A stretch of DNA of 64,000 nt, the filler included, from Dirinaria sp. TL-2023a (Eukaryota), in the NCBI GenBank assembly GCA_051941275.1. It is 16 parts of 16 records of this genome, joined end to end, with 100 filler letters (N's around TTAATTAATTAA, not from the genome) between each part and the next. Parts side by side here need not be neighbours in the genome. Positions count along the whole stretch, not along the records: positions 32,506 to 36,429 come from JAVEBF010001935.1; 15 more parts are not named here. One strand, given 5' to 3'. How positions within the stretch are numbered: the stretch's first letter is position 1; each line of letters starts with the position of its first letter. The position numbers were made by a program, and so were the translations under genes. The notes beneath the pieces were generated by a model, which saw nothing but the letters and a program-made list of their open reading frames with translations, was not told the DNA's origin and searched no databases. Shown here piece after piece: positions 32,605 through 36,429 of the stretch.

Positions 32605-35600
32605 ACTTCTTACTAGCATAACAAATATTGAGCAATGAGCATGACACGACGACGAACTCATCGATTGCAAAGATTCAAAATATAAATATTTTCATCTCAT
32701 TTCTCTGCTTCTCAAAAAACTGATACGCTTTATTTTACGACAACAACGAGATGAGATGATTGAGATGAGATGAGAAAATGACAATGATCGATGAGAAAAA
32801 CGATGTAATTTTCATTAAATTAGAATTTGCTGTGATCAAAAAACGTCGATACAATTTATGTATGCACTGTAATCGCAGTATTTCGTACGTGAGAATGTTT
32901 TCTTTCTCATATTAAATCGTTTTTTCTCAAATATTCGTTCGTAGATAGTTTCTGTTGTTAAAATCATGTTTTACATTGAAATAATCATCATCATAATATA
33001 TTCACAAACACACATTCATCAATGAGTAAATCTTCAAAAATCGATCAATTGAATATTTTTACTTAATCGAATCAAATTAACTACGACTCGAATGATTTGA
33101 ATGTCTCAATAATCTCTCGTTCTCGATCGATCGATGCACTCAATTACGACACGTACGATTTGAATGTCTCAATAATCTCTCGTTTTCAATCGTTCGATGC
33201 ATTCAATTACGACACGCACGATTTGAATGTCTCAATAATCTCTCGTTCTCGATCGTTCGATGCACTCAGTTACGACACTGATGATTTGAATGTCTCAACA
33301 ATTTATCGTTCGCGACACAGTTTTGAAAATCTTATCGAACATTTATATTATGAAGCGTTGAAAGACATTGTCAGCAGCTTTTTGAAAGAGAAAAATACGA
33401 CGATGAAAAACATCTTCACTCATGTGAAAAAGAAACATGAGACGAGAAAAAACATTCTCAGACGACTCAACGACGATGAGACGAAGAAAAATTTTCTCAA
33501 ACAACAAAAAAAGAACGAGAAAAATTTTTATCATGAGCGTACAATTGACGAGACGTCAAAATACGTTGACTGAAAAAAGAACGATGATGAAAAAAAAAAC
33601 TGAATTTTTCATTGTACAATCTCTCACGTTGATAAATTAATTTATTGACTGTTGTTAAATTAGCGACGATTACGATATTTTGCAAAATTCTCAATCATTA
33701 ATGACGCACGATTATTTTGCAGATTTGAAATTCGAGAGCGACGATAATGTTTTTGATATCTCGTTCTCGTCATCGTTTTTTTCAGTATTTCGTTTTTACG
33801 CGTTTACATCGTCGATTTCAGTCTTTTTTAAATTCTTTTCTCAAACATCGTCGCTCAGCGAAATTGTTCTTGAGATCACGAATGAGAACATCGCGATACT
33901 CTCATTATTATACATTGCGCTGAGTTTATACTTTGAGAGATGCGAAAAATCGAGATCGAAATACGTTAAATTACGAGAGATTTTCGAATTGTTCTTGCAG
34001 AAAAAACGACAGATACAATTTTTCGCTCACTCTGAAAAGTCGAAAATGAATAATATAAAAACGTTTTTTTTAAAACTGAACATTTTGAAACGTCAGATAC
34101 GTCGTCACATATCTCTGTTTCAGTTGATGCGAAAGATTTTATCGATCACGATTAAAAAATAGCTCTTTTTAGTCGCTCGAAAAAAAAAATGATCGACGAT
34201 AAATTTTGAATCGATTTTTTCGACAATATTAATATGATTTTATGAATCTAATACGCACGATTCTATCGATCATCAAATTACAGAAAAAAATGCATTTCGA
34301 AATGACAATGTACGTGAATCAATTTATCGAACTCTGACATTCGAGTGTCTGAGATTTCTTCATTCGTATCATTTTCGAAGACGTATGTTATATTCGACAA
34401 AAGAAACTGATTGTTTTCGAGAACATTGTTCACGTCAGTATTAATTTTTTCAATTCTCAAATTTATATTATAAGAAAAATTACATTTATCGATCGAGATC
34501 ATCGTCATGAGACGAATTCGATGAATGAGATTGTTGTTATTATTCAGACAATAATTGATGATGAACACGTGATTCTTCGAAATCGCAATTTTGTTCATGA
34601 ATTTAACGAATTTTTTGTGCTAAAGAACGTTTTTATGAAATTCTTTTTTTATAAATTGAATCGTCGTTTTTATGTTTATCTTGATCGCAAATATAACGAT
34701 GATGACACTGATGACGAGAATCACGAAGATCTCTTTGTTAAAAGAGTGATAAGTTTCTCAAAAATCAAATTACTGCGTCAATTGCATTTTATCAGAGAAA
34801 AGCTGAAGATTGAGTGTTTTGATCGTCGTCACGTTGAAAAATTCTTTATCAAATCTCATAAATCGCTGTCGTATCTTTTATTTATCGACGATTTTGCGAT
34901 ACATCGTAATATGTATCGAGTTTTGAAGATCTTTTATTTAATTTCAATCTGTCTGAGTTACGAAAAACGACGCAAGATCGTTAACGTATTCACGTTGACG
35001 TTGAGATCGCATGAAGCTGATATTCAGATCGTGATGAAAGTTTTTGTCAGATTTATTCGACAATTGAATCGCGACGTTGATGAGATGATCATTAATGAAA
35101 AAACGCTCGCGATCTGCGCATTTATCTTAAATCTAATAGAAGACATGTCACAACAAATCGACAATGACGAATTTGCGCGACATAACGTCAAGATAAGTTG
35201 TCGCTCGTGTTTCTGTTCGAAAATCGACAGAGAAAGATTGAATTTCGATATCGTTAATCGAGAAAGATATCATGTGAAAACGATTGATCAAAGAAATCAG
35301 ACTCAGCAATTTGTAGAAAAACAACGCAAAGCATTTCTTCGTGACACTGATATAAAATTGAAAATCTCGATTATCGCTCGATTGTGTTCGACTTTAGATC
35401 TTGTACGAACTCGATCATACGATGTTTCTCATTCGAAATGAAGAGATCTGAAAAAAATACTACAAAGTTTTTTAATAATCATCATACTTAGCAAAAAGAA
35501 AAACTCGACTTATCTAAAGACATTTCAAAACTTTCAGTATTCTTCAGACTGATTCAGAATACAAAATTCAATCTTTTACATCTAATTCTAATCACTTTCG

Positions 35601-36429
35601 AAAATCGACAGAGCAACGATTTTGATTTCTCTAATACTGAGAACGCATGCTACTGTGAGCTGATTCAGTCTCATATTTCTATAGTTCGTTGAAAGTAACA
35701 TGAATGTGAAGTCATCGTTTATGCGAGCTATCATTCGAGCGTTCGAAATCATTGCGCATTCGAACACACTGATTGATAATCAAAAATATATCGATTCGAA
35801 CGAGCTGCATAAAACAATCATAAACGTCAGAAAAACGTATCAAAACTTAATACGATGTGCAATTTCATCTGATATTAGACAAAAAGCTCGAAATAATGAC
35901 GTTCTGAAAAATTTTCTCGACTCTCATCTCAACTCTCACTCTGATCTCGAATTCGATGATGTAATCAATTCACTTGAAGATATTTTATCTGTACGATCGA
36001 AATCAGAATCTCAACTGAGGTTTTCACTCGTTGATTTCAAAACGTCTTCTCAGAAAAAAGTAAAACGAACATCAGAAAGATCAAAAGACAGCAAATTTGA
36101 GACTCTTTTATCTCTTCTCAACGTGCATGCAGATCTTTATTTGACGAATAACGCGCGAGAATTCGTCACAGTGATGAATGTAAATGTTTTGACAAAAAAA
36201 CTGAAACATATGTGAGAATTTCTGCGTTTTTCGACTGACGAAATTGAAATTTACGATTCTAGAATCTTCAAAATCATGACGAATAATATCGCATCTTCAA
36301 ATCTGATAAGATATCTGTTCGTCAGAGATGTGATGACTCAGTTCATGAGATTGAGATTAAAAAAACATGAGATCACTCGCATCTCGAGTTAATGATCGTT
36401 TTAAAACTGCTGAATCAGAAATGTTCAAC
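32605..36429 (+). mobile_element. Heavily mutated (RIP-like) AT-rich transposon relic; decayed CACTA/Plavaka-like transposase frame at about 33680-36215
   Basis: Many in-frame TGA and loss of Gly/Pro/Trp codons. Residual motifs LFIDDFAIHRNMYR, NVFTLTLRSHEAD, IEDMSQQ, SCRSCFC. Superfamily call is tentative. Confidence 0.7.
33079..33312 (+). repeat. 63-bp tandem repeat, about 3.7 copies
   Basis: gatttgaatgtctcaa at 33094, 33157, 33220 and 33283. Confidence 0.92.

What the first reader, a model, noticed from the sequence alone, without database searches (positions are those of the whole stretch)
32605..36429. 3.8 kb almost free of CC/GG: non-canonical CpC>TpC repeat-induced mutation
Seen: by eye only one GG (36019-36020) and no CC from about 32605 to the contig end, while CpA/TpG and CpG remain abundant. 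The first ~100 bp of the contig have normal CC/GG, giving a sharp boundary. Codon damage fits: inferred Gly>Asp/Glu/Arg, Pro>Ser, Trp>TGA rather than TAG (e.g. LGPHGAD > LRSHEAD). Established: classical Neurospora RIP prefers CpA>TpA. Inference: a RIP-like genome-defence system with a different, near-saturating CpC specificity, which standard RIP indices would miss.
Basis: partly seen in the sequence, partly recalled or inferred. Interest (0 to 1): 0.72.

Follow-up and report, generated by a model that had tools for sequence, protein, structure and literature searches.

The report
CpC-targeted RIP-like mutation in lichen fungus
A dead transposon in a lichen-forming fungus has lost essentially every CC and GG because repeated DNA in this genome is mutated C-to-T at the first C of CC pairs, a target not found in the RIP literature searched and one that the standard RIP tests do not see.

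Summary
Observation confirmed: 0 CC and 1 GG in 3,825 bases; shuffles give 202 (minimum 160). The contig is the relic of a DNA transposon (Plavaka/CACTA-like lead) behind the 3' end of an LTR, in the genome of a lichen-forming ascomycete. Mutated gypsy copies aligned to their least-mutated copies give C>T rates CpC 46% (531/1152), CpT 9%, CpA 6%, CpG 2%. Both strands are hit; the 5' C is the target, and the first C of CCC is disfavoured. Against intact relatives the relic keeps 0/28 invariant Gly, 0/15 Pro and 0/7 Trp, but 10/12 Gln. 16 of 30 reverse-transcriptase loci are CC-depleted; 0 of 160 bins from arbitrary gene contigs are. Standard RIP indices score the relic negative. A RID-type methyltransferase gene is present (5' part only); DIM-2 was not found. 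Gly/Pro-free relatives from other assemblies point to a wider range. Best reading: RIP with a CpC (CCD) preference. RID dependence and meiotic timing are inferred, not shown. No CpC-dominant RIP in 10 literature searches; Clutterbuck 2011 could not be read. The scan noted the same signature on three other pieces of this genome.

The parts
32506..32623 (+). 3' 118 bases of a 351-bp LTR (TG...CA) of a Ty3/gypsy-type retrotransposon family; normal CC/GG content; gives the sharp boundary
   Evidence: 100% identical over 118 bases to copies on C55 and C3, and 82-99% to 18 further places; full LTR defined; a copy on C1331 is followed by a long reverse-transcriptase frame; polypurine tract before the C55 copy. 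Ty3/gypsy label inferred
32624..36429 (+). Hypermutated DNA-transposon relic, 0 CC and 1 GG, GC about 33%; runs to the contig end
   Evidence: five other partial copies in the genome at 85-93% identity, each with CC/GG-free runs of 400-1,800 bases
33082..33315 (+). 63-bp tandem repeat, 3.7 copies, upstream of the coding region; copy number differs between element copies
   Evidence: gaps in the alignments
33908..34186 (+). N-terminal part of the ruined transposase-like gene (matches residues 93-183 of intact relative P0009); frame changes at the A-run near 34180-34190
   Evidence: tblastn 44% identity; the copy L002 is one base shorter here
34179..36209 (+). Main part of the ruined transposase-like gene (P0009 residues 180-851, 39% identity); 11 stops: 6 TGA, 4 TAA, 1 TAG
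34353..35375 (+). 341-codon stop-free stretch with no Gly, Pro or Trp: frames stay open under CpC mutation but lose all three residues
36019..36020 (+). The single surviving GG (context CTGAGGTT)

Best explanation
The contig is a transposon copy destroyed by repeat-induced point mutation whose target preference is the 5' C of CpC (motif C-C-D, D = A/G/T), then CpT, then CpA, with CpG almost spared. SHOWN: directional C:G>T:A change, its context, action on both strands, concentration in repeats of two kinds (LTR retrotransposons and a DNA transposon), graded load from nearly untouched to saturated copies. INFERRED from known RIP biology: repeats are recognised by homology in the premeiotic phase of the sexual cycle, and the RID/Masc1-type C5-methyltransferase modifies the target cytosine, which is fixed as T; the altered preference would lie in RID or a partner. 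Because CC>TC creates stops only from TGG, frames stay long but lose every Gly, Pro and Trp, so the element is killed mainly by missense.
For: Pooled over 24 pairwise alignments (>=80% identity) from two gypsy families against their least-mutated copies: C>T at CpC 531/1152, CpT 119/1370, CpA 75/1272, CpG 15/752; 740 forward against 58 reverse changes and 56 transversions. Cleanest set (C1331 internal, 3 alignments): CC 112/156, CA 7/170, CG 0/164, 0 transversions. 34 of 37 CC sites in the LTR are hit in at least one copy, 30 in three or more; 0 of 22 CG sites. The 3' C of CC is not a target: 44/892 against 165/2502 for lone C. First C of CCC 34/259 against 497/893 for CCD. C>T 357, G>A 383. 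Element copies differ by 421 transitions and 37 transversions; CT 254, CA 133, CG 32, CC 2. Invariant residues kept: Gly 0/28, Pro 0/15, Trp 0/7, Gln 10/12, His 9/10. Simulated CC saturation plus minor CT/CA reproduces the observed O/E pattern; CpA or context-free change does not. 16 of 30 RT loci have CC O/E <0.3, lowest CpA O/E 0.84; 0 of 160 bins from 8 arbitrary large contigs are depleted; one mutated LTR copy (L017) is depleted inside with normal flanks. A RID-type gene with motifs FCGGG, PPCQ and EQT lies on C1379.
Against: Nothing here ties the mutations to RID or to meiosis. The RID-type gene is cut by its contig end inside an apparent intron and its C-terminal half was not found. Its assignment to RID rather than DIM-2 rests on recalled domain layout plus a weak score of a full-length relative against PDB 9BAP/9BAQ, which I recall as DIM-2 (36 bits). 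Lightly mutated copies carry C>T and G>A in equal numbers (L011 2/3, L010 4/4), whereas a single RIP passage is recalled to be often one-stranded. Little-mutated multi-copy LTRs and two long open gypsy frames persist. Copies may share mutations by descent, so site counts are not independent. One family is noisier (CG 15/302, 34 transversions). 2 of 30 RT loci pass the canonical RIP thresholds. The 1,239-genome survey concludes that RIP-like defences share a CpA preference (PMC12543289).
Confidence: 0.72

Rival explanations
1. A vegetative, chromatin-directed mutator: a DIM-2-like or other methyltransferase methylates CpC in transposon heterochromatin and the marks turn into T during mitotic growth of a long-lived thallus, without meiotic homology sensing.
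For: Precedent: Dim2 drives C>T at CpA in mitosis in Zymoseptoria, with some CC methylation (PMC8016269 passages). Both strands hit equally even in lightly mutated copies. Depletion extends over whole repeat clusters on C9 and C55.
Against: No DIM-2 found by three queries: PF00145 gave 1 match of 2 candidates, a motif pattern 0, and the 3 BAH matches showed no methyltransferase frame in their translations. L017 is mutated inside the LTR with normal flanks. The assembly is fragmented (3,105 contigs), so absence is not shown.
Confidence: 0.2
2. A cytidine deaminase (APOBEC/AID-like) or UV damage at dipyrimidines, plausible in a sun-exposed lichen since CC and CT are both dipyrimidines.
For: The two top contexts are pyrimidine pairs.
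Against: UV and APOBEC3G-type changes are recalled to hit the 3' C of TC/CC; here the 3' C of CC is not a target (44/892), TpC is enriched (O/E 1.67), TCA mutates no more than ACA or GCA (0.049, 0.068, 0.051), gene contigs are untouched, both strands and a DNA transposon are hit.
Confidence: 0.04
3. Base composition, a sequencing or assembly artefact, or a contig from another organism in a metagenome bin.
For: The assembly is metagenome-derived and fragmented; no reads could be laid on the stretch; two contigs share an identical LTR/element junction despite 10-15% divergence behind it, which suggests local assembly joins.
Against: Shuffles never come below 160; copies show a graded series from 98% to 82% identity with the same spectrum; depleted repeats sit on large contigs (C9, C55, C875) beside normal DNA; Gly/Pro-free relatives come from independent assemblies.
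Confidence: 0.03

Closest known systems
Repeat-induced point mutation (RIP), RID pathway, Neurospora crassa and other Pezizomycotina
   Same: Directional C:G>T:A in repeats, sharp edges, graded load among copies, RID-type gene present, tandem rDNA contig unaffected (CpC O/E 1.03).
   Different: Target CpC (CCD) instead of CpA; TpA is depleted, not enriched; few stops, Gly/Pro/Trp lost instead of Gln; GC falls only to about 33%; standard indices negative.
Non-canonical RIP-like signatures: CpT+CpA (Magnaporthe, Botrytis, Sclerotinia), CpG+CpA (Aspergillus nidulans, Tuber), TpCpG (Microbotryum, rusts) (PMC4352252, PMC2621366 passages)
   Same: Lineage-specific dinucleotide preference; CpT bias proposed to come from a specialised RID; CpT is the second context here.
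   Different: The passages read list CpA, CpT and CpG only; none lists CpC as dominant; CpG is the most protected context here.
RIP reported in lichen fungi: Cladonia rangiformis (PMC12542154), Xanthoria (10.1101/2025.11.25.690456)
   Same: Same class of host; nested younger elements with higher GC; sharp gene/repeat borders.
   Different: Called by GC content (repeat peak about 16% GC) or by RIPper; the word 'dinucleotide' occurs 0 times in either main text, so no context was reported there.
Dim2-dependent mitotic C>T in Zymoseptoria tritici (PMC8016269)
   Same: Context-specific C>T in transposons that spares CpG.
   Different: Target CpA; needs Dim2, which was not found here.
Plavaka (PF18759) / Transposase_21 (PF02992) DNA transposases
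   Same: Weak matches in intact relatives; Atlas first hit 0.90 with 177 shared features.
   Different: The window's protein has no Pfam match; terminal repeats not found; family assignment is a lead.

Membership tests
RIP (broad sense) | Large excess of directional C:G>T:A transitions | tested here: met
   740 forward, 58 reverse, 56 transversions; 99 transitions to 1 transversion against L002
RIP (broad sense) | Confined to repeated sequence; single-copy genes spared | tested here: met
   16/30 RT loci depleted; 0/160 bins of 8 arbitrary large contigs and 0/99 other window bins below O/E 0.66. Single-copy status of those contigs was not checked one by one
Canonical RIP | CpA>TpA dominant; TpA/ApT >=0.89 and (CpA+TpG)/(ApC+GpT) <=1.03 | tested here: not met
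   CpA 6% against CpC 46%; indices 0.48 and 1.25
RIP (broad sense) | RID/Masc1 gene present and intact | tested here: inconclusive
   5' part with catalytic motifs present and open for 866 codons; C-terminal half not found with one query
RIP (broad sense) | Mutation depends on RID (or DIM-2) | not testable with these tools
   needs genetics
RIP (broad sense) | Acts between fertilisation and meiosis | not testable with these tools
   needs progeny or time-course sequencing
RIP (broad sense) | Homology length threshold of a few hundred bases | tested here: inconclusive
   351-bp LTR copies are hit, but some belong to longer elements
Dim2 mitotic mutator | DIM-2 gene present | tested here: inconclusive
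   not found by three queries in a fragmented assembly; no positive control genome
Plavaka/CACTA-like DNA transposon | Transposase domain above the family cut-off | tested here: inconclusive
   window protein 0 families; 6 of 41 relatives scanned (of 150 listed) match PF18759 at E<=0.01, one at the cut-off; Atlas PF02992 lead
Plavaka/CACTA-like DNA transposon | Terminal inverted repeats and target duplication | tested here: inconclusive
   element ends lie off the contig; no inverted match beyond 15 bases between the extensions on C2178 and C2439

The most novel reading that the evidence does not exclude
Many lichen-forming ascomycetes run a RIP class whose RID recognises C-C-D, working without DIM-2 and to saturation. 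It has been scored as 'no RIP' because every common index is built on CpA, and it has seeded protein databases with long Gly/Pro-free phantom proteins. This RID would be the natural variant that locates the specificity determinant of RIP.
Probability: 0.4. Interest if true: 0.82.

Novelty: new variant of a known kind. Interest (0 to 1): 0.63.

Why it matters
What sets the dinucleotide preference of RIP is open: purified RID shows no activity in vitro (PMC13297926), and the latest kingdom-wide survey concludes that RIP-like defences share CpA (PMC12543289), with only 3 Lecanoromycetes sampled, all scored no_rip. A natural system with CpC eight times over CpA offers a swap experiment that could show whether RID itself reads the target base. 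In practice, RIP surveys built on TpA indices would undercount RIP in such genomes, and gene callers turn these relics into long proteins without Gly or Pro (18 of 31 hits; 8 of 150).

Tried and rejected
Composition and shuffles: rejected. Canonical CpA RIP and context-free deamination: simulations give CpC O/E 1.15 and 0.86, against 0.01 observed. CC>CT (3' C) polarity: rejected. Structure prediction of intact relative P0009 gave mean pLDDT 32, so no fold search was run. Sequencing runs: none was listed, so no reads were laid; this is no evidence either way. Metagenome scan: 6 loci from 190 candidate stretches, all with normal CC; the seeds came from intact motifs, so mutated copies could not match. 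Names for 10 Gly/Pro-poor relatives: none of 17 listed members carries a name, so their taxa are unknown. Atlas on the methyltransferase domain returned only generic C5-methylase clusters. C-terminal half of the RID-type gene: 0 matches, 1 candidate. Terminal repeats: none found. In one search alignments under 75% identity were left out of the totals; one search kept only alignments of 80-<100% identity above a length floor, which dropped L092, L096, L060 and others; one search skipped alignments under 300 bases. Literature: searches found no report of CpC-dominant RIP; PMC5602860 matched only through a strain code.

Full report
Observation. The window is 16 contigs joined by N spacers; the finding is contig 32506-36429, G000:C1935. 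From 32605 to 36429 there is no CC and one GG (36019) in 3,825 bases at 32.5% GC. Shuffles give 202 +/- 12 and never fewer than 160 in 1,000. CpA is normal (O/E 1.10), CpG is high (2.17), TpC is high (1.67) and TpA is low (0.50). The other 15 contigs have CpC O/E 0.89-1.07. The canonical indices are 0.48 and 1.25, against RIPCAL's default criteria of >=0.89 and <=1.03 (PMC2621366 passages), so the stretch scores as unaffected.

Anatomy. Bases 32506-32623 are the 3' end of a 351-bp LTR with about 20 places in the genome; a copy on C1331 leads into a 1,313-codon frame with a reverse-transcriptase match. This explains the sharp boundary. C2178 carries the element without the LTR at this point, which fits a later insertion. 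C2960 has the identical junction with a diverged element behind it, so an assembly join cannot be excluded. The rest is a ruined transposase-like gene (33908-36209) that matches intact relatives at 38-44%, with five other partial copies at 85-93% identity, all CC-poor. Family assignment is a lead only: 6 of 41 relatives scanned match Plavaka weakly, and the Atlas suggests Transposase_21.

Host. The genome has 27.7 Mb in 3,105 contigs. Its methyltransferase is identical over the searched region to a protein that its source labels as from a Dirinaria metagenome-assembled genome, and the other named hits are Physcia, Heterodermia, Usnea, Variospora, Usnochroma and Haloplaca. The host is therefore taken to be a lichen-forming Lecanoromycete.

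Direction and context. Because the element's own copies are all saturated, polarity came from two other sources. First, proteins: at columns invariant in 7 intact relatives the relic keeps 0 of 28 Gly (18 became Asp or Glu), 0 of 15 Pro (10 Ser, 4 Phe, 1 Leu), 0 of 7 Trp (5 TGA, 2 TAA, 0 TAG), but 10 of 12 Gln and 9 of 10 His. GG>GA and CC>TC are the same event on opposite strands; CpA RIP would have removed Gln first. Second, DNA: mutated copies of two gypsy families were aligned pairwise to their least-mutated copies (24 alignments of at least 80% identity). C>T rates were CpC 531/1152, CpT 119/1370, CpA 75/1272, CpG 15/752, with 58 reverse changes and 56 transversions. The 3' C of CC mutates no more than a lone C (44/892 against 165/2502). 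The first C of CCC is hit less (34/259) than CCA/CCG/CCT (497/893), more than competition with the middle C would explain (inference), so the motif is C-C-D. Both strands are hit alike (357 C>T, 383 G>A). Lightly mutated copies carry almost only CC changes, heavily mutated ones add CT and CA, and the saturated element copies differ at CT 254, CA 133, CG 32, CC 2. A simulation of CC saturation plus minor CT/CA on an intact relative gives CG 2.54, CT 0.72, TA 0.62, TC 1.47, GC 30%, close to the observed 2.28, 0.80, 0.50, 1.68, 32%; it yields 13-19 stops against 35-56 for CpA RIP. Caveats: copies may share mutations by descent, and short-read contigs may be mosaics of copies.

Extent. Of 30 reverse-transcriptase loci examined (32 matches), 16 have CpC O/E below 0.3, 6 are intermediate and 8 are at 0.7 or more; the lowest CpA O/E is 0.84; 2 pass the canonical thresholds, one of which (L073) shows CC 28/35 against CA 5/38 on alignment. 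Of 293 500-base bins from 37 fetched stretches, 9 are CC-depleted and 0 look canonically RIPped; the 4 depleted bins on large contigs lie in stretches chosen for being next to LTR copies, and 0 of 160 bins from 8 arbitrary large contigs are depleted. Outside this genome, 18 of 31 relatives found with a Gly/Pro-free query have under 2.5% Gly+Pro, and 8 of the best 150 found with an intact profile have under 1%, against 8-15% for 138. These come from unnamed assemblies; many keep Trp, which suggests TGA read-through by the gene caller (inference). The process is thus probably not confined to this genome, but its taxonomic range is not established.

Machinery. PF00145 gave one match of two candidates: an 866-codon frame on C1379 ending in a compact C5-methyltransferase domain, cut by the contig end within what looks like an intron. 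Relatives that extend further end with motifs IX-X after a short variable region (9 of 120 carry the last motif). I class it as RID/Masc1 from recalled layout. Its C-terminal half was not found. DIM-2 was not found by three queries, which does not show absence.

Mechanism. Best reading (0.72): RIP by the RID pathway with a changed target. Shown: spectrum, polarity, repeat confinement, saturation. Inferred: homology sensing, premeiotic timing, RID as agent. Main rival (0.20): a vegetative methylation-coupled mutator as described for Dim2 in Zymoseptoria (PMC8016269 passages). UV or APOBEC-type damage (0.04) fails on polarity; artefact (0.03) fails on the graded series and independent assemblies.

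Literature. Ten searches returned no report of CpC-dominant RIP. Seen: PMC12543289 (section 9 whole, passages, three rows of table S14; table S13 too large to open), which concludes that RIP-like defences share CpA and scores its 3 Lecanoromycetes as no_rip; passages of PMC4352252 (CpA, CpT, CpG signatures), PMC2621366 (defines a CpC index but reports CpA, CpG, CpT biases), PMC8959702 (CpC>TpT double mutations within CpA RIP), PMC5737583 (CpC declines but CpA dominant), PMC5555474, PMC12542154, 10.1101/2025.11.25.690456 and PMC13535494 (lichen RIP without context), PMC13297926, PMC11105155, PMC5602860 (irrelevant). Clutterbuck 2011, a survey of RIP contexts in filamentous ascomycetes, was not seen and may hold CpC cases; most subscription papers are outside the library. 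Novelty is therefore 'not found in what could be searched'.

Earlier notes. The scan recorded the same signature on three other pieces of this genome; I read them after forming and testing the same reading, and they are not independent support.

Verdict. Real, well supported as a CpC-dominant, repeat-directed C>T process; it works like RIP but fails the canonical CpA criterion; a new variant of a known kind. Interest 0.63.

Noticed in passing
window 28500-32392: rDNA contig: the SSU match spans 2,236 bases against an 1,831-position model, with an insertion of about 400 bases near 29060-29495. By eye the 5' part looks green-algal and the 3' part ascomycete (recalled, untested), so the contig may be a photobiont/mycobiont chimera. 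Its CC content is normal.
   Followed up: no
L002 (G000:C2538) 1370-1790: A CC-free copy of the element ends abruptly at a different LTR-like sequence (starts TGTTACG) with normal CC/GG and an internal direct repeat: a second nested younger element.
   Followed up: partly
L006 (G000:C2960) 1-89 and window 32571-32659: Identical LTR/element junction on two contigs whose element parts differ by 10-15%; either an assembly join or an unusual shared insertion.
   Followed up: partly
P0147, P0195, P0198, P0204: Gly/Pro-poor relatives that also lose Arg and gain Cys/Trp (Arg 8-14 in 373-516 residues for the last three): a different spectrum, apparently CpG plus CpC, in some other organism.
   Followed up: no
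window 34180-34190: G>A changes made an A-run at which this copy has one base more than L002, shifting the frame: secondary slippage caused by the hypermutation.
   Followed up: partly
L083 (G000:C2955): An RT locus with normal CC (O/E 1.10), low CpG (0.71) and four TGA stops; unlike the others, possibly from another organism in the bin.
   Followed up: no
L008 (G000:C55) 1-1527: CC-poor DNA runs up to a polypurine tract and is followed by a little-mutated LTR; either LTR ends escape or the assembler used a common LTR path.
   Followed up: no
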